Below are positions 56,077 through 64,000 of a DNA stretch of 64,000 bases, one piece after another. Made by a program: the position numbers and the translations under genes. Each line of letters opens with the position of its first letter. The stretch's first letter is position 1. The DNA is taken from contig CAWIEK010000063.1 in the NCBI GenBank assembly GCA_963835065.1, positions 1 through 64,000 of the forward strand, given 5' to 3'. The DNA is from an uncultured Chthonomonadaceae bacterium. Its GTDB lineage: Bacteria > Armatimonadota > Chthonomonadetes > Chthonomonadales > Chthonomonadaceae. The notes below the pieces were generated by a model. It did not search any database. It had not been told where the DNA came from and was given only the letters and a program-made list of their open reading frames with translations.

Positions 56077-56862
56077 ATGAACACTCCTCCCCCCGGTTCG
56101 CCAATTGAAGAAGACGCCGCGTTTGTCGAGATTGCGCCGCTGTACGACATGCTGATGACGGGTGTGCCGTATACGGAATGGATCGTGTACTTACGCAAAC
56201 TGCTGGACGAGCGCAAGGCGCGGCCCCGGCAGGTGTTGGATTTGGCGTGCGGCACGGGCAATGTGTCGGAACTGCTGGCCGGCGAAGGCTTTGCCGTGAC
56301 GGGCGTGGATATTGCGCCGGGCATGATCGCGCAGGCGCAGGCGAAAGCGGCACAGGCGAATTTGCCGATTGCGTATGCGGTGCAGGACGCGGCTCTGCTG
56401 GATCTGCCGGGCAAGCGGTTCGATTTGTGCGTGTCCCTCTTCGACAGCCTCAACTACATCACCGACCCCCTCCGATTGCAGATGGCGATGGAGCGCGTGG
56501 CCGCGCACCTGACCCGCAACGGCCTGTTCATCTTCGACCTCAATACGGAATACGCCCTTGCCAACCACTTCTTTGACCAGAACAACCTGAGCAGCAAGGA
56601 CCGCCTGCTGTACGACTGGAAAAGCGACTTCGATCCGCAAACGCGCCTGTGCCGGGTCCACATGAACTTTCGCTATACGGCGGAAGAGGGAACGGAGCGC
56701 GTATTCGAGGAAGTCCACTGGCAGTACGCTTACCGCACGGAGGAGATCGTTGCCATGCTGGAGCAGGCGGGTTTCGACCAGATCGCCACCTACAAAGCCT
56801 ACACCCTGCGCCAGCCCGTCCGCACTTCCGACCGCATCTTCTACGTCGCCCGCCGCCCGTAA
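56077..56862 (+). CDS. class I SAM-dependent methyltransferase
   Basis: VLDLACGTG, GVDI..GM, FDSLNY, GLFIFD. Confidence 0.92.
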   Translation: MNTPPPGSPIEEDAAFVEIAPLYDMLMTGVPYTEWIVYLRKLLDERKARPRQVLDLACGTGNVSELLAGEGFAVTGVDIAPGMIAQAQAKAAQANLPIAYAVQDAALLDLPGKRFDLCVSLFDSLNYITDPLRLQMAMERVAAHLTRNGLFIFDLNTEYALANHFFDQNNLSSKDRLLYDWKSDFDPQTRLCRVHMNFRYTAEEGTERVFEEVHWQYAYRTEEIVAMLEQAGFDQIATYKAYTLRQPVRTSDRIFYVARRP

Positions 56863-57158
56863 GGGCTTTGCCATGAACAGAAGCAAGCATTTGTTGGTGA
56901 AGGTAGAACAGGAAGATACCGGCTGAAACAGCAGTGGTTTACACGGTTTGACCATCATGGAGATTGTCTAAACTGAATGGCTACCTTCTTATGGAAGTAT
57001 TGCGAAGCCGTTATTAATCGTGTGCGTTATGGATCGTTGCCAAAGGCAGAAGCGCGGATACGCGACAAGACAAGCGGGGAAACAGTTGTTGTCTTCACAG
57101 TCAGCGACGCTTTTGTGTTTACAGGAATGGTTTATAATGTTCGCAGGAGGACAGGAAC

Positions 57159-57398
57159 ATGAGTCTGACACTCGACGATACACGCCTGCTATATAGCCCA
57201 ACTTGTGCCTTATGTAAGCACCTCAAATCCGCTATGACGCCGATGTGTGATGCTTTTCCCACAGAAAACGGCATCCCGGACGAAATCTGGACGGGAAGGA
57301 ACGATCATCATCAGCCCTATCCCGGTGATCACGGTATTCAGTTTGAACATCGGAAGCAACCGACCAAAGCGGCGTCACAAGAAACCGTTTCGCGTTGA
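57159..57398 (+). CDS. small Cys/His-motif protein, copy 1 (79 aa)
   Basis: CALCKH..CDAFPTENGIP.EIW.G.NDH.QPYPGDHGI.FE; AGGAGG RBS; TATAAT 57133. Confidence 0.8.
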   Translation: MSLTLDDTRLLYSPTCALCKHLKSAMTPMCDAFPTENGIPDEIWTGRNDHHQPYPGDHGIQFEHRKQPTKAASQETVSR

Positions 57399-57444: not shown

Positions 57445-57490
57445 CCTGCGCCCTCCCGTCTGCATCTTCTACGTCGCCCGCCGCCCGTGA
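57445..57490 (+). repeat. duplicate of the methyltransferase 3' end
   Basis: GCATCTTCTACGTCGCCCGCCGCCCGT identical at 56834-56860 and 57462-57488, with further degenerate match upstream. Confidence 0.9.
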
Positions 57491-57500
57491 GGTGTTGCTT

Positions 57501-58340
57501 ATGCCCTGCGCCCTTGTGCTGCCATTGAAACCTCTGAATGTCGCGCCGATGCCCGAAGCCGTCAATGACTGCGCCCACGCCGCGTTTTTCGCACTGATTG
57601 ACAGCGTGGATGCGTTGTTGGCGCAGCGTCTGCATGGCATGGAGGAGCGCAAGCCGTTCACGCTGTGCCCGCTGTACGGAGAACCGCGCGGCAAGGATGC
57701 GCGGACGGGCGGCCCCCTTGTGCCAAGCGGCCTGCGCCTGACCCTGCTGGATGACGCGCTGTTTGCGGTTGTCGCGCACGCGCTGCTGGCGAATACAGCC
57801 GGGGCAATCCTGCGGCTGGGTGAGGCGCATTTCACGCCAACGGCGGTGTGGGTGACGGCGGACGCGCATCCGCTGGCGGGGCAGGCGGCGTATGCGGATT
57901 TGTACGGGAAGGTGGAGTCGCCCGAAACATTGACCGTGACCTTTGAAACGCCAACAGTGTTTCGGTCGCAGAAGCGCGATGTGCTGTGGCCGGAGGCGCG
58001 TTTGCTGTGGCAGTCGTGGGCGCGGGCATGGGCGGCGTTTGCGCCTTCCGTGTGCCGTCTGCCGGACGAAGCGCAAATTCTGGACTGGGCGACGCAAACG
58101 GGGGTGACAGGGCATAAACTGCAAACGCGAACCGTGCCGTTGACGGGAAGCGGGCAGGCGGGTTTCACGGGGTTTTGCGCCTACGACCTGAGCGCCCTGC
58201 CCCTGGAAGCGCGGCGAACCTTGAATACTCTGGCCGCCTTCGCCTTTTACGCGGGCACGGGCCGCAAAACCGCGATGGGCATGGGGCAAACGCGCTGCCA
58301 GCCGAACCAGCGCAAGCAAGGGATAAGGGATAAGAGATAA
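57501..58340 (+). CDS. cas6: CRISPR endoribonuclease Cas6
   Basis: KPFT, F.TPT.F, GFTG...Y, Gly-rich loop FAFYAGTGRKTAMGMGQ; adjacent to array. Confidence 0.92.
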   Translation: MPCALVLPLKPLNVAPMPEAVNDCAHAAFFALIDSVDALLAQRLHGMEERKPFTLCPLYGEPRGKDARTGGPLVPSGLRLTLLDDALFAVVAHALLANTAGAILRLGEAHFTPTAVWVTADAHPLAGQAAYADLYGKVESPETLTVTFETPTVFRSQKRDVLWPEARLLWQSWARAWAAFAPSVCRLPDEAQILDWATQTGVTGHKLQTRTVPLTGSGQAGFTGFCAYDLSALPLEARRTLNTLAAFAFYAGTGRKTAMGMGQTRCQPNQRKQGIRDKR

Positions 58341-58744
58341 GAGTATGTAGAGTCATCGTCGAAATCTTGGCAATGCAGCGCTTCCAGCCCGATGTCTCAT
58401 TGTGTCAAATTGTAGGAGAGAGGCGTCGTGGCCTCCAAAGCGTCAGGGCGAACGGGAGGGGTGGGACATGGGCCTGTACCTCCTTTGCTGAGTGAGTAGT
58501 TGATAGTTGATAGTTGATAGTTGATAGGAACTACCAACGTTCAGCCTTTGTGCCTGGATAGTAGACACTTGTGCTATTTAGACAGGATGTGTGGGGAAAA
58601 GGTTCACTGTTTTTGTGTTGTTTGGCTCTTTTTTTCATCTTTTTTCCATCTTTTTTGCTGGATGGTTGCTGTTGGCGTCGGGCAGGAAAGGGGAGAGGGC
58701 GCTTGCCTATTCCGGTTGGACCGGCAGGATTTGCCTGCCTGCCG

Positions 58745-58922: not shown

Positions 58923-60159
58923 GTTGCAACGCCCGTTTGCCCCTCACGGGGATTGAAACCGCTTAACTACATTCGCGAATCTTGAGTAACATTACGCCTC
59001 GTTGCAACGCCCGTTTGCCCCTCACGGGGATTGAAACTGCCGTCTGGAACGCGCCTGTCTACCTGTTCTGGGCGTTTCGTTGCAACGCCCGTTTGCCCCT
59101 CACGGGGATTGAAACCCTTGATTGCGTCAGCATCGATCGTCGAAGCATTTCATGTTGCAACGCCCGTTTGCCCCTCACGGGGATTGAAACCTTGACTCAA
59201 ACTGTGTAGTGATGTCACGTTGTCTTGTTGCAACGCCCGTTTGCCCCTCACGGGGATTGAAACCTGACACAATGTTGCAACTCGCATTCATGCGTTAACG
59301 TTGCAACGCCCGTTTGCCCCTCACGGGGATTGAAACATGCGTCTCGGCATGACTCGTACTCTAAGTACGCGTTGCAACGCCCGTTTGCCCCTCACGGGGA
59401 TTGAAACCGCAACATGCGCACTGCGCAGGTTGCAACGCCCGTTGCCTCTCACGGGGATTGACAACGCTCGATCTGCCAGTGCACGGCAGGTTGCAACGCC
59501 CGTTTGCCCCTCACGGGGATTGAAACGTCATTCGGCAGCATGCGTAAGCCAGGTTGCAACGCCCGTTTGCCCCTCACGGGGATTGAAACATCATTTGCTG
59601 CGTATCGTTATCAACGCGGATTGGGCATGATTGGCAAGTGTATGCAACGTCCGTTCGTTTGCCCCTCACGGGGATTGAAACTCTGTCAAGCTGCGATGCG
59701 GCAGTTGCAACGCCCGTTGCCCCTACGGGGATTGAACATTCGAATCGCGGCGCTAATCAGTTGCAACGCCCGTTTGCCCCTCACGGGGATTGAAACGATC
59801 TGCCAGCGCGTTGTCAGACATCGAGCATTGCGTTGCAACGCCCGTTTGCCCCTCACGGGGATTGAAACATCCGAACCTGCCGGATACCGCTCTCGTTGCA
59901 ACGCCCGTTTGCCCCTCACGGGGATTGAACGATGCCACCTGCAGCGTTCTGGCGCAGGTTGCAACGCCCGTTTGCCCCTCACGGGGATTGAAACCTTTGC
60001 AAGCCGGTCTTCCATGTACGCCAGGCTCACGTTGCAAGCGTTGCGCCGTGTGAATTGCAACGCCCGTTTGCCCCTCACGGGGATTGAAACTCAGACGGTT
60101 GTAATGTCGGCAGCGAAACTTTGTTGCAACGCCCGTTTGCCCCTCACGGGGATTGAAAC
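58923..60159 (+). CRISPR. CRISPR array 1, 18 repeats, consensus GTTGCAACGCCCGTTTGCCCCTCACGGGGATTGAAAC (37 nt)
   Basis: repeats at 58923, 59001, 59079 ... 60123; spacers 21-60 nt; several central repeats carry indels. Confidence 0.97.
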
Positions 60160-60221
60160 TTAGGCGACAGCGGCAAATTGGTGTACAATAGAAAAAACCG
60201 TTCGGAGAAGGAGGCCAGGCT

Positions 60222-60440
60222 ATGAAAGGGCATATCGAATCCGACAATTTGCCTGTGGTAAGTCAAACATGTTTCAGTTGCCGCCACTGGCAACCAGGCA
60301 ATAGGACATGTGCCGCTTTCCCGGAAGGTATTCCTCTGCCAATTTGGATGGGTGAAAACAATCACCGACAGCCTTATGCCGGCGATCATGGCATACGCTA
60401 TGAATCAGTACAACAGCCCGTTTTAGCCAAAGCCTCTTGA
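60222..60440 (+). CDS. small Cys/His-motif protein, copy 2 (72 aa), located between CRISPR repeats
   Basis: CFSCRH..CAAFPEGIP.PIW.G.NNH.QPYAGDHGI.YE; AAGGAGG RBS; TACAAT 60184. Confidence 0.85.
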   Translation: MKGHIESDNLPVVSQTCFSCRHWQPGNRTCAAFPEGIPLPIWMGENNHRQPYAGDHGIRYESVQQPVLAKAS

Positions 60441-60460
60441 CACGAGTACGCGAAGCGCGA

Positions 60461-60568
60461 GTTCGATCCGAGCGCTTCCCCTCACGGGGATTGAAACTCT
60501 GCGTTTCCTCTCTGTCGAATAGATTTATAGAAGTTGCAACGCCCGTTTGCCCCTCACGGGAATTGACT
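60461..60568 (+). CRISPR. one-spacer mini-array: divergent repeat, 35-nt spacer, degenerate array-1 repeat
   Basis: GTTCGATCCGAGCGCTTCCCCTCACGGGGATTGAAAC (60461-60497); GTTGCAACGCCCGTTTGCCCCTCACGGGAATTGACT (60533-60568). Confidence 0.85.
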
Positions 60569-60593
60569 GAGATTATCCATAGAAACGCAAAAA

Positions 60594-60624
60594 CACCCTC
60601 CTACGGGTTTTTCGTAAGAGGGTG
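60594..60624. terminator. hairpin after the mini-array, between convergent transcripts
   Basis: CACCCTCCTACG-GGTTTTT-CGTAAGAGGGTG. Confidence 0.55.
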
Positions 60625-60676
60625 ATGTTAGAAGGGAAAGGCAGCGACAAACATTCAGGAAAATGGACGGCTATAT

Positions 60677-60994
60677 TCAGCAACCGGAGAGCGTGACGGG
60701 TGAGGACGCGACTACTTCAACGGGGTTGTTGGCGCTGATGGGAGTGAACTCCAGCAGAACAATTGCGATGCCGTTGCCAAGACGCTGTTCAATCACAATG
60801 TCTGCTTCCTCGCCGTTCCGGGCATCGCGGCAGAGCCTTTGCAGTAGTTCCGCATCCGTCACTTGCGCCATTTGTGAAAACAATTTGCGCTTGCCGTCCG
60901 GGCGCGTCACGATTTTGGAGTAGGCGAGCATCGGCGGTTCATCTTGCGTTAAGCCATGAATTTTAACGCGCATCTTTACGGTTGTCTCGATCAT
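60677..60994 (-). CDS. hypothetical protein (105 aa)
   Basis: GGAGGA RBS before ATG 60994; overlaps the end of the upstream gene. Confidence 0.6.
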   Translation of the reverse strand: MIETTVKMRVKIHGLTQDEPPMLAYSKIVTRPDGKRKLFSQMAQVTDAELLQRLCRDARNGEEADIVIEQRLGNGIAIVLLEFTPISANNPVEVVASSPVTLSGC

Positions 60995-61320
60995 TGTCTC
61001 TCCTCCGGCCACGCTGCAAAACCGGCAGACGTTCCAGCACGGGCGGCAACCTTTCCAAATCCTCTCCACTTCCGCCTGTCGGAATGTATTCCATGCGGAA
61101 CAGGTCAAAGACGCCTTCTTGATTGTACCGTCTTCCAAGCAAAATCACTTTGCGCATAACTGCGATCAGGAAAAACGCTCACCGAATACAGGCGCTGCCC
61201 TGCCTGATCGCCAAAGTACAAACTAAAGGTTGCGCCGCCGTTTGCCTCATGCAATTGCAAGATCGTTTCGGATGCTTGTTCAACGTCCTGTCTTGCAGGC
61301 AACTCCGTATCAGAGCGCAT
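60963..61320 (-). pseudogene. hypothetical gene with frameshift or internal deletion near 61155
   Basis: NGGATFSLYFGDQAGQRLYSVSVFPDRS in one frame; LLGRRYNQEGVFDL..MEYIPTGGSG in another. Confidence 0.5.
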
Positions 61321-61384
61321 TAAGTACGATTTGAGAGTGTTTGCCACACGAATAGAATTCATCAACAGAACGGAATTGTCCTGC

Positions 61385-61639
61385 ATGATCAAGACGATAC
61401 AATGTGCTTTTTGCATCCACTACGAACCGGACAGAAAGCCACAGAGCGGCGAACAGAGGTCGCTTGCGCGTGGGTGTTGCGCGGCCTTTCCTGATGGCAT
61501 CCCGGAGGCAATGGTGGAGGGGCGGCATGACCACCGCCTGCCGTATCCGGGTGATCATGGAGTTCGATTAGAATTAATGCCGGGACTTACGCCAGCATTA
61601 TTGGGCGATTTGCCGGAGCCAATGCGGAAAGCCTCTTGA
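61385..61639 (+). CDS. small Cys/His-motif protein, copy 3 (84 aa)
   Basis: CAFCIH..CCAAFPDGIP.AM..GRHDH.LPYPGDHGV; TTGAGA-16-TAGAAT upstream. Confidence 0.8.
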   Translation: MIKTIQCAFCIHYEPDRKPQSGEQRSLARGCCAAFPDGIPEAMVEGRHDHRLPYPGDHGVRLELMPGLTPALLGDLPEPMRKAS

Positions 61640-61706
61640 CAGGCGCGGTAAACCAGCCCCTTTAACCGGATGATTCACATAAAATCTAAATTTGCAATGC
61701 AGCGTG

Positions 61707-61735
61707 TTGACAAATCGGCAAAAACGTTGTAGAAT
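61707..61735 (+). promoter_or_regulatory. near-consensus sigma70 promoter upstream of the array 2 leader
   Basis: TTGACA-17-TAGAAT. Confidence 0.7.
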
Positions 61736-62036
61736 TGTGGGAATGGTTGATGGGGTTGGAGATGCGCGGCAACCCTGCACAACATAACTGGCAAGGAAAT
61801 GACATCAATCACATTGTCAGCGAACCGCTCTTGCGCGTTGTTACCTTTGTTTGCGCAGGATAGGCAGCAGGCAAACAGACAACCCCGAACCTCGCAACAG
61901 GCTCAAAATGGCCGTCATTCGGGGTTTGGCTTACTCTCGAAAAAGAGGAAACTATGGCAAAAAAGTGTAATTTTGTGGGTGTTGCTGCCGTTTGTGGAAT
62001 CATTCGGGGTTTCCTATCTCAAACATGAGATAGAGG

Positions 62037-63368
62037 GTTCAAATGAAGGGCTTCCCCTCACGGGGATTGAAACGTTATCGGCACGCTGACCTCATATTGC
62101 CCAGAGCGCTGGTTCAAATGAAGGGCTTCCCCTCACGGGGATTGAAACGTCGTTAGCTGCGATGAATTGCTCAGTTTCTTGCTAGTTCAAATGAAGGGCT
62201 TCCCCTCACGGGGATTGAAACGGGCATGTACCATGAAATTCATTCCTAACCTCTCGTATGTTCAAATGAAGGGCTTCCCCTCACGGGGATTGAAACGTGA
62301 CTCCGATCGTCCAGCATACGGTGCCTCGTACTGCCGTGTTCAAATGAAGGGCTTCCCCTCACGGGGATTGAAACGCGATGGCCGTCCTCGTCACAGTTGC
62401 GATGATCCGGCACGCGTTCAAATGAAGGGCTTCCCCTCACGGGGATTGAAACGTTCCGCATGCGGCCAGCGAGGCTCTGTACCTGCTGCTATGTTCAAAT
62501 GAAGGGCTTCCCCTCACGGGGATTGAAACGGCAGACGCTTCCAGCGAATCAGATGCTTCGCATGCGGTTCAAATGAAGGGCTTCCCCTCACGGGGATTGA
62601 AACGCCCGTACGCATGCAGTATCGACGATCGTGCAAGCTTAGCCTGTTCAAATGAAGGGCTTCCCCTCACGGGGATTGAAACGCATGCGATGCAGGTGAT
62701 CGCATGTGCTATCGCTGTCGGGGTTCAAATGAAGGGCTTCCCCTCACGGGGATTGAAACGACCATGATCTAGAGACATTGAGCGTAGCTACCTTGACCTG
62801 TTCAAATGAAGGGCTTCCCCTCACGGGGATTGAAACGTCTGATCGGCATATAGCCGTTTATGAGCCTGCCGCCGTTCAAATGAAGGGCTTCCCCTCACGG
62901 GGATTGAAACGGTCAGCTCCGCCAACTTGACGTATTGCGAAGCTGCGCGGTTCAAATGAAGGGCTTCCCCTCACGGGGATTGAAACGACAAGACTTCCGA
63001 TGAATGTCGTTCACGAGCTTCATACGTTCAAATGAAGGGCTTCCCCTCACGGGGATTGAAACAGTGACATGCGATGCACGAAGCGTGTCATGCTAGATCG
63101 GCTCGTTCAAATGAAGGGCTTCCCCTCACGGGGATTGAAACGCGCCCGTCAGCGAGCAATCCCATGGCCCTTGGTCCGTTCAAATGAAGGGCTTCCCCTC
63201 ACGGGGATTGAAACGTCAAGTGGCTGCCACACCATTCGCAGTAGCGCTCCACGTTCAAATGAAGGGCTTCCCCTCACGGGGATTGAAACGACTTCACGAC
63301 CTGTCCTGACGTTCAGCCAGCTGGACGCGACGTTCAAATGAAGGGCTTCCCCTCACGGGGATTTGAGT
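62037..63368 (+). CRISPR. CRISPR array 2, 18 repeats, GTTCAAATGAAGGGCTTCCCCTCACGGGGATTGAAAC (37 nt), last repeat degenerate
   Basis: 17 identical repeats plus a degenerate terminal one; 17 spacers of 36-42 nt. Confidence 0.98.
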
Positions 63369-63452: not shown

Positions 63453-64000
63453 GTGCTGTTTGGGGAACTGACGCCACTTCAACGCCTGAGCCTGCTGCCC
63501 TGGCTGCCTGCGCCTGATTTTGCGCCGCTTGCCCCGGAAGAAGCGGACGTTTTGCGGCAGGCGCGGGACCTTGCCGGGGATTTCGGACGCTTTGCCCGTT
63601 GCGCTGCAAACCCCGTTTGCCGGGCTGCGCGTTCCCGCCATAGGGGATATGCCCGGATGCCTGCCGCCGCCCGTCACCTACTGGCCGCTTTCTCCTGCCG
63701 ATCCGCCCGATGTTCGCCCGCCCGATATTGCCGCTTGCCTGCGCGATTGGCAGGCCGACGTGAACGGGCTGAACCTGCTTCCCGCCGTTTCTTTTTCGCG
63801 CCGCTACGCCGCTCTGATGGGACTGGCGCAATCCCATGCGGCCTGTCTTGGCCTGCCCGGTCAGCCCGACATTCCCCTGCTGCAAAGCCGCCGTTTGTGG
63901 AGCGCCCTTGCCGCCTGCCTGTGGACGCTGCGGCAAACACCCGGCGACGGGGAGGAACTCGCCCTGCTTGTGGCCGATCTGTCCGGCATCCAGTCGTACC
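63453..64000 (+). CDS. cas10: Cas10/Csm1-like protein, 5' part (runs off window); degenerate HD region; probable +1 G frameshift at 63576-63580
   Basis: manual translation ends QPDIPLLQSRRLWSALAACLW...ELALLVADLSGIQSY, matching the Csm1 pattern PD.SL..H...TAA.A.CL...LLV.GDLSGIQ.FI; GGAGA RBS before GTG 63453. Confidence 0.78.
   Translation, partial: MLFGELTPLQRLSLLPWLPAPDFAPLAPEEADVLRQARDLAGDFGRFARCAANPVCRAARSRHRGYARMPAAARHLLAAFSCRSARCSPARYCRLPARLAGRRERAEPASRRFFFAPLRRSDGTGAIPCGLSWPARSARHSPAAKPPFVERPCRLPVDAAANTRRRGGTRPACGRSVRHPVV

What the first reader, a model, noticed from the sequence alone, without database searches (positions are those of the whole stretch)
60123..60568. A complete gene sits as a 301-bp giant spacer between CRISPR repeats
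Seen: right after perfect repeat 18 (ends 60159) comes 60160-60460, holding a -10 box (TACAAT), an AAGGAGG RBS and an intact 72-aa gene. It ends exactly where another 37-nt repeat starts (60461), followed by a normal 35-nt spacer and the degenerate terminal repeat of array 1. Inference: both flanking repeats keep the CCCC-TCAC-GGGG hairpin and ATTGAAAC tag, so Cas6 could excise a translatable mRNA from the pre-crRNA. The array may capture or express gene cassettes, coupling this protein to CRISPR transcription and processing.
Basis: partly seen in the sequence, partly recalled or inferred. Interest (0 to 1): 0.8.

Follow-up and report, generated by a model that had tools for sequence, protein, structure and literature searches.

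The report
Orphan antitoxin-like gene inside CRISPR array
A small, intact gene that normally follows a phage toxin-like gene really does sit between two CRISPR repeats here and in one related bacterium, most likely because a tiny mobile toxin-antitoxin fragment recombined into the repeats rather than because CRISPR is built to express genes.

Summary
The 301-bp insert (60160-60460) carries an intact 72-aa gene, but the downstream repeat is not an array-1 repeat: it matches array 1 at 26/37 and neighbouring array 2 at 31/37. The protein belongs to a large unnamed CxxCxH family (8,008 clusters) that follows phage head-protein effector domains. The insert starts with the last 21 codons of such a JAB-like gene, whose stop overlaps the ATG. 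The TACAAT is that gene's built-in internal promoter box. A modelled intact pair (partner 54% identical) binds over the JAB active site (0.65, best control 0.01). A second genome of the genus has a 770-bp cassette of the same family between two Rfam CRISPR-DR9 repeats. The family is also flanked by non-CRISPR host duplications (radC, sucD, a methyltransferase end). Best reading: a mobile toxin/antitoxin-like islet inserted by target duplication or recombination, here at a CRISPR repeat, leaving an orphan immunity-like gene. Cas6 excision is possible but unshown; the folded product hides its ribosome site. No independent contig spans the junctions. New variant of known array insertions.

The parts
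58923..60568 (+). CRISPR array 1: 18 R1 repeats, the insert, R3, one spacer and a degenerate terminal repeat; spacers 7-17 irregular
60123..60159 (+). Perfect R1 repeat (no. 18), left boundary of the insert
60160..60460 (+). 301-bp insert, 50% G+C against 57% for the genome
60160..60225 (+). Last 21 codons plus stop of a JAB-like toxin-type gene, cut at the repeat edge; its stop overlaps the ATG (ATGA)
   Evidence: profile score 10.4; 2e-4 of random windows, 0.012 when the anchor Tyr is fixed
60161..60189 (+). Internal promoter-like element of the toxin tail: weak -35 position 60161-60166 (TTG lost), 17 nt, TACAAT 60184-60189
   Evidence: consensus scan negative
60208..60214 (+). Shine-Dalgarno AAGGAGG
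60222..60440 (+). 72-aa CxxCxH..C..H protein (PHROG 33375, unknown function); immunity/antitoxin-like partner of JAB-like domains
60441..60460 (+). 20-nt 3' flank; can pair with the variable 5' half of R3
60461..60497 (+). R3: unique repeat, 31/37 to array-2 repeat (last 24 nt identical), 26/37 to array-1 repeat
60498..60532 (+). Normal 35-nt spacer, no second match in the genome
60533..60568 (+). Degenerate terminal R1 repeat
57492..58340 (+). cas6, intact, 282 aa
56821..57492 (+). Second family islet: JAB-gene remnant plus paralog 57159-57398, flanked by a 44-nt duplication (89%) of the methyltransferase 3' end (56821-56864 and 57449-57492)
61385..61639 (+). Third paralog of the family, between the two arrays
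62037..63368 (+). CRISPR array 2 (17 perfect R2 repeats and a degenerate terminal one), likely source of R3
63520..64000 (+). Cas10-like fragment (continues to 64437 on the contig)

Best explanation
The insert is the remnant of a small mobile two-gene islet, a JAB-like effector gene followed by its CxxCxH partner, derived from phage MuF toxin-immunity modules. In this phylum such islets enter chromosomes between direct repeats of host DNA, by insertion with target duplication or by single-crossover integration of an islet-plus-repeat circle. Here the host sequence used was a CRISPR repeat of the local array-2 type. What remains is the minimal expression unit: the toxin tail with its internal promoter box, the RBS and the intact partner gene, i.e. 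an orphan immunity-like gene. Shown: anatomy, family context, tail remnant, second case, enrichment of flanking duplications. Modelled: partner binding over the JAB active site. Inferred: the insertion route, toxicity, protection, and expression by its own weak promoter or by read-through from the CRISPR leader, with Cas6 cutting at the repeats as a by-product.
For: Family context: of 61 family rows classified by a crude motif rule, 13 follow a JAB-like gene or its tail, 12 a HExxH-type gene, 36 other. Of the 10 long upstream ORFs I picked from metagenome and viral loci, 8 match phage head-morphogenesis families; P0006 fuses MuF, a JAB-like domain and two copies of this domain. JAB motif E, H-x-H, D invariant in 12 of 12 aligned. 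Tail remnant and ATGA overlap. TTG-led hexamer, 17 nt and a -10-like box at the same codons in 8 of 14 other JAB-tail loci. Complex model of the intact G006 pair: score 0.65, best of 3 controls 0.01; the mark was reached by 116 of 157 solved and 2 of 215 mismatched pairs; runs share at least 78% of contacts; partner pLDDT at least 75; interface includes JAB residues 19, 61, 63, 73 and partner residues 3-17. Flanking duplications of at least 29/37: 11 of 72 phylum genes with full flanks (7 single islets, 4 rows from two tandem arrays) against 9 of 633 other small ORFs of this genome and 17 of 1,500 random sites; 7/72 vs 9/633 p=5e-4. Non-CRISPR examples: radC 89 and 152 nt, sucD-like 43 nt, methyltransferase 44 nt, 51 nt, 498 nt. 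R3 core is local, and a related organism in run X2 has an array-2-type terminal repeat before the same 60566 flank.
Against: Both CRISPR cases have the duplicated unit ending exactly at the repeat 3' end, which a length-variable duplication does not predict and Cas1-Cas2 does. R1 and R3 share only 26/37. With CRISPR cases removed and the two radC loci merged the enrichment is weak (4/69 vs 9/633, p=0.03), and kin are not independent. 0 of 26 full-flank metagenome and viral genes reach 29/37. No empty-site allele of this strain and no donor sequence were found. The modelled pair is a homologue (54% identical partner), not this protein. The family also follows unrelated effector folds, so it may be a general companion rather than a specific inhibitor.
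Confidence: 0.5

Rival explanations
1. Cas1-Cas2 (or the genome's RT plus Cas1 module) integrated an over-long prespacer, duplicating a whole repeat; the copies later diverged or swapped 5' halves between arrays. The gene is kept because it protects against phage-delivered effectors.
For: Exact repeat edge at the left junction in both genomes, cutting a gene in mid-sequence. In G001 both flanks score as full-length CRISPR-DR9 (45.4 bits against gathering 45; 26.2 bits) and differ at 6 of 37. Three cas1 loci and an RT next to one of them in G000.
Against: Insert is about 8 times the spacer length; flanks are different repeat types; no cas1 or cas6 found in G001, 97% complete; the insert includes DNA upstream of the predicted start site, so it is not a copy of the small gene's own transcript; the same islets sit in non-CRISPR duplications.
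Confidence: 0.2
2. Two ordinary spacers that matched the same phage locus recombined with it (double crossover), replacing the array segment between them with the phage DNA between the two protospacers.
For: Explains exact repeat edges, arbitrary cuts in genes and unlike flanking repeats at once. Spacer-target recombination is reported (PMC8616872, passage citing Varble 2019). The family is phage-borne.
Against: Needs two same-strand spacers within 300-800 bp of one target, twice, in the same gene family. None of 84 spacer and insert-end queries matches a family locus fetched. Does not explain the non-CRISPR duplications.
Confidence: 0.12
3. A selected CRISPR-coupled expression unit: Cas6 releases a 338-nt translatable RNA and the protein is made with the crRNAs.
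For: Intact cas6, tag and hairpin letters kept in both repeats; the 6 changes in R3 cluster outside the hairpin and tag (chance 7e-4 if uniform); the internal -35 has lost its TTG, so read-through may matter; all invariant residues kept.
Against: Shine-Dalgarno mostly paired in the predicted product; R3 hairpin disfavoured in context. The genome has type III effector modules, whose crRNA maturation trims 3' ends (recalled, not tested). 7 of 8 paralogs in the genome are not between repeats. G001 has no cas6 hit.
Confidence: 0.1
4. Assembly artefact: a chimeric consensus joined an unrelated locus into the array.
For: Irregular spacers and indel-bearing repeats just upstream; a frameshifted paralog and split cas genes elsewhere; no spanning contig.
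Against: N50 183 kb and smallest contig 10.7 kb suggest long reads that would span 301 bp (inference). The insert and R3 are single-copy, so there is no second locus to borrow from. A parallel structure exists in G001.
Confidence: 0.08

Closest known systems
MuF polymorphic toxin-immunity modules of temperate phages (PMC5576092, passages read)
   Same: Small ORF under 150 aa directly behind an effector domain of a phage head protein; here also coupled by overlapping stop and start.
   Different: This family has no Pfam, NCBIfam or PADLOC name and no PDB match; in this phylum the pair stands alone in chromosomes without MuF; here the toxin is cut to 21 codons.
[quoted passage not shown]
   Same: Selfish gene pair without transposase or integrase, between host-derived direct repeats of variable length.
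   Different: Cargo is a JAB-like effector and partner, not R-M; in two cases the repeat is a CRISPR repeat; no empty allele was available.
Array-targeting elements: Tn7-like transposons and phage PhiAP1.1 (PMC11837452, passages read)
   Same: Foreign DNA inside a CRISPR array, often near the trailer end.
   Different: No transposase, integrase or terminal inverted repeats; 301 bp; both repeats left whole with the insert in place of a spacer.
Single repeat units and regulatory mini-arrays, CreTA-like (10.1101/2023.03.03.530964, passages read)
   Same: CRISPR repeats outside their usual role, linked to toxin-antitoxin cargo; solo repeats are common in this class.
   Different: There the spacer is 20-60 bp and guides repression; here a protein-coding gene fills the spacer position.
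Orphan and poly-immunity loci (PMC3482391, passages read)
   Same: Immunity-like genes gathered without their toxins: 8 paralogs in G000, six in tandem in G094.
   Different: Not among the families in the passages seen; dispersed islets rather than one locus.

Membership tests
Canonical Cas1-Cas2 spacer | Length within the array's range (34-42 nt) | tested here: not met
   301 bp
Canonical Cas1-Cas2 spacer | Flanked by two copies of the same repeat | tested here: not met
   26/37 between R1 and R3
Canonical Cas1-Cas2 spacer | Foreign DNA abuts full repeat edges exactly | tested here: inconclusive
   Left edge fits the toxin tail from base 1; right edge unclear because the 5' half of R3 may be insert DNA
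Canonical Cas1-Cas2 spacer | Adaptation genes present in the genome | tested here: met
   three cas1 loci in G000; none found in G001
MuF-type immunity protein | Small ORF directly downstream of an effector domain in homologues | tested here: met
MuF-type immunity protein | Binds the cognate effector | tested here: inconclusive
   Model of a homologous pair passes (0.65 vs 0.01); not a measurement and not this copy
MuF-type immunity protein | Neutralises toxicity in cells | not testable with these tools
   needs co-expression assay
MuF-type immunity protein | Cognate intact toxin gene adjacent | tested here: not met
   only the last 21 codons remain
Insertion with long target duplication | Flanking direct repeat over 30 bp of target DNA | tested here: inconclusive
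   20 nt exact with R1, 24 nt with the array-2 repeat; 30 nt at 97% in G001; 43-498 nt at sister islets
Insertion with long target duplication | No mobility gene in the insert | tested here: met
   one 72-aa ORF only
Insertion with long target duplication | Empty allele with a single target copy in a sister strain | tested here: inconclusive
   run X2 shows a different last spacer before the same flank; no spanning contig
Array-targeting transposon or prophage | Transposase or integrase and terminal repeats | tested here: not met
   none in the insert
Regulatory mini-array (crlRNA, CreTA) | Short spacer complementary to a host promoter | tested here: not met
   insert ends and the 35-nt spacer have no second genomic match of 17 nt or more; shorter partial matches not examined
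Cas6-processed mRNA | RNA ends at the repeat cleavage sites and translation | not testable with these tools
   no RNA holder listed

The most novel reading that the evidence does not exclude
In this lineage CRISPR repeats, in arrays and as solo copies, act as integron-like cassette boundaries. Promoter-RBS-gene units that neutralise phage-delivered head-protein effectors are captured between repeats, move as gene-plus-repeat circles, and are expressed from Cas6-cut transcripts. CRISPR loci would then store protein immunity as well as guides.
Probability: 0.15. Interest if true: 0.85.

Novelty: new variant of a known kind. Interest (0 to 1): 0.5.

Why it matters
It shows, in two genomes and with two unrelated repeat families, that CRISPR repeats can bound gene-sized functional cargo without any transposase or integrase. 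This bears on how rigid spacer size control is and on whether repeats serve as recombination sites for gene capture. It also gives a testable role to a large unnamed phage protein family (8,008 clusters): active-site blocker of a JAB-like effector. If the insertion route is the general duplication mechanism, the CRISPR link is incidental and the value lies mostly in the new toxin-partner pair.

Tried and rejected
No RNA holder listed for the stretch; this says nothing on expression. Contigs of runs X1-X4 cover parts only; X2 holds the gene at 60189-60345 with 5 differences, but no contig bridges a junction. I first read the X2 joint 60089-62037 as an R1-to-R2 switch and dropped this: only about 19 nt of the shared core align. 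P0001 (97% identical, 2,620-bp contig) could not be fetched, so its context is unknown. R3 as a foreign repeat type: no match in 67 other class genomes, viral contigs or 400 other phylum genomes. Family motif with a repeat tag 41-101 nt downstream: 5 hits in the genome collection, 4 chance (no family gene on inspection), 1 is G001; 0 in viral contigs; the pattern is exact, so misses are possible. Fold and profile searches: AlphaFold pLDDT 80.8 but no PDB match; no PDB sequence match for the JAB alignment; weak HiPIP hits below cut-off not accepted; Atlas neighbours all unnamed. Type I-D: no Csc2. G002 repeat pair 2.8 kb apart in L153: second copy too degenerate, no self-alignment. Literature: nine searches listed no paper on a protein-coding gene occupying a spacer position without a mobile element; the library lacks most subscription journals and I read passages only, no supplements.

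Full report
Observation. Array 1 runs from 58923; repeat 18 is perfect at 60123-60159 and is followed by 301 bp, a 37-nt repeat-like unit (R3), a 35-nt spacer and a degenerate terminal repeat. The insert holds TACAAT, AAGGAGG and a 72-aa ORF at the stated places. R3 is not the array-1 repeat: it matches it at 26/37 and the array-2 repeat at 31/37, with the six differences confined to positions 5-13. Its last 24 nt occur in 1 of 401 phylum genomes, this one, so it is best read as a local derivative of the array-2 repeat, or as 24 nt of that repeat joined to insert DNA. A related organism in run X2 has an array-2-type terminal repeat before the same downstream flank. Spacers 7-17 are irregular, so part of the array is decayed or badly assembled; no public contig spans the junctions. 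Contig sizes suggest long reads, and insert and R3 are single-copy, so an artefact is unlikely but not excluded.

The gene. The protein has C17, C20, C30, A32, P38 and H48 invariant in 88 aligned sequences; 8,008 clusters match at E<=0.001. It hits PHROG 33375 only, with no Pfam, NCBIfam, PADLOC or PDB match. Metal binding by Cys and His is inferred. G000 has 8 copies, 3 in this locus; 43 of 401 phylum genomes have one. Homologues follow JAB-like or HExxH-type genes, and 8 of 10 long upstream ORFs picked from viral and metagenome loci match phage head-morphogenesis families. This is the layout of MuF toxin-immunity modules (PMC5576092, passages). A complex model of the intact G006 pair, whose small protein is 54% identical, scored 0.65 against a best control of 0.01; the mark was reached by 116 of 157 solved and 2 of 215 mismatched pairs; runs agree in at least 78% of contacts, partner pLDDT at least 75. 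The partner's N-terminal residues 3-17 lie over the JAB motif residues, and our protein keeps that segment. No like complex was found by sequence or fold search, so a pass from memory is less likely, but binding is not shown.

What the insert is. Its first 66 nt read in frame as the last 21 codons of a JAB-like gene (score 10.4; 2e-4 of random windows, 0.012 with the anchor Tyr fixed), ending in a stop that overlaps the ATG. In 8 of 14 other JAB-tail loci the same codons spell a TTG-led hexamer, 17 nt and a -10-like box. Here that hexamer begins at base 2 of the insert and has lost its TTG; a consensus scan finds no promoter. So the -10 box and RBS came with the fragment, and the left boundary falls at the edge of the minimal expression unit.

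A second case. In G001 (same genus; a record title names the family Chthonomonadaceae) a 770-bp cassette of a start-less JAB gene and its partner lies between two repeats. They score as Rfam CRISPR-DR9 at 45.4 bits (gathering 45) and 26.2 bits, a family that forms true arrays in other genomes of the class. The partner's stop lies inside the second repeat. No cas1 or cas6 was found in G001. The arrangement is rare: 2 of 113 distinct genes examined, 0 of 39 metagenome and viral loci, and 1 true hit in the genome collection scan, which may leave out the own genome.

How it got there. The same islets are flanked by duplications of ordinary host DNA: radC (89 and 152 nt, probably one event), a sucD-like gene (43 nt; gene name recalled from the translation), the methyltransferase end in this window (44 nt), and 51- and 498-nt segments. 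Of 79 phylum genes, 7 were dropped for short flanks; 11 of the 72 left have a flanking repeat of at least 29/37 (7 single islets, 4 rows of two tandem arrays), against 9 of 633 other small ORFs and 17 of 1,500 random sites. The test gives p=5e-4 for 7/72, but only p=0.03 without the CRISPR cases and with radC merged, and kin are not independent. This resembles insertion with long target duplication of restriction-modification genes (PMC2853133, passages). In both CRISPR cases the downstream copy is exact at its 3' end and diverged at its 5' end, which fits a partial duplication or integration of a gene-plus-repeat circle at the shared core. Against this, the exact left junction is what Cas1-Cas2 makes, and G000 has three cas1 loci, one next to a reverse transcriptase. 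Double spacer-protospacer recombination (PMC8616872, passage) would also give exact edges, but 84 spacer and end queries match no family locus.

Expression. The adjacent cas6 is intact and type III effector modules exist elsewhere. Cleavage 8 nt before each repeat end (recalled rule) would free a 338-nt RNA. Its predicted fold pairs most of the Shine-Dalgarno sequence and disfavours the R3 hairpin, and type III maturation trims 3' ends (recalled). Clustering of R3's changes outside hairpin and tag (7e-4) leaves selection for cleavage open, but a junction at that point explains it equally. No RNA data were available.

Comparison and verdict. Elements inside arrays are known (Tn7-like, PhiAP1.1; PMC11837452, passages), as are solo repeats and mini-arrays (10.1101/2023.03.03.530964, passages). 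This case lacks mobility genes and carries an immunity-like gene, twice in one genus with different repeats. Nine searches found no published match. Unchecked notes of this scan report gene-sized spacers in other genomes, so the layout recurs and is not unique. Verdict: real feature, new variant of known array insertions, most likely an orphan antitoxin-like islet (0.5); interest 0.5.

Noticed in passing
L052, L056, L066:8648-8684, L159, L173, L178, L181, L182, L184, L185, L186: Solo CRISPR-DR9-like repeats lie shortly upstream of housekeeping genes across the class (gene names rpmJ, rpsN, ahcY, infC, nusG, pnp read from translations and recalled). Possible Cas6 sites in mRNA leaders or mobile repeats; 33 of 68 class genomes have a DR9 match.
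   Followed up: partly
L050:1492-1602 (G002): Repeat, 36-nt spacer holding a -10-like box, degenerate repeat, then the start of an excisionase-HTH/PIN-like toxin-antitoxin pair; looks like a regulatory mini-array.
   Followed up: no
L138:1501-1640 (G000 C37): Solo R4-type repeat followed by a hairpin, TATAAT and small antitoxin-like genes.
   Followed up: no
L066:9000-16000 (G000 C49): cas6, group II-like reverse transcriptase, cas1 (split) and a regular array next to the ribosomal protein operon; cas genes of this genome are scattered over C2, C15, C44, C48, C49, C63.
   Followed up: partly
L220:860-2931 (G094): Six tandem cassettes of toxin-tail remnant plus family gene, a poly-immunity-like array separated by pieces of a phage gene.
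   Followed up: partly
window 59408-60122: Eleven spacers of 21-59 nt and repeats with indels, while array 2 is regular; strain-mixed consensus or real decay.
   Followed up: partly
window 60426-60440 and paralogs: Many family members of different subgroups end in (A/R)KAS-stop or AEAS-stop; possibly a degradation tag of a labile antitoxin (inference).
   Followed up: no
window 58331-58710: About 380-nt element upstream of the array-1 leader is repeated at many places in the genome at 75-92% identity, a MITE-like or RNA element.
   Followed up: no
window 60677-61416: Two minus-strand ORFs without family hits between the arrays, followed on that strand by a terminator-like hairpin at 60594-60624.
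   Followed up: no
G000 genome-wide: Many isolated 35-60 nt imperfect direct repeats bracket 0.5-2 kb islets, some duplicating gene ends.
   Followed up: partly
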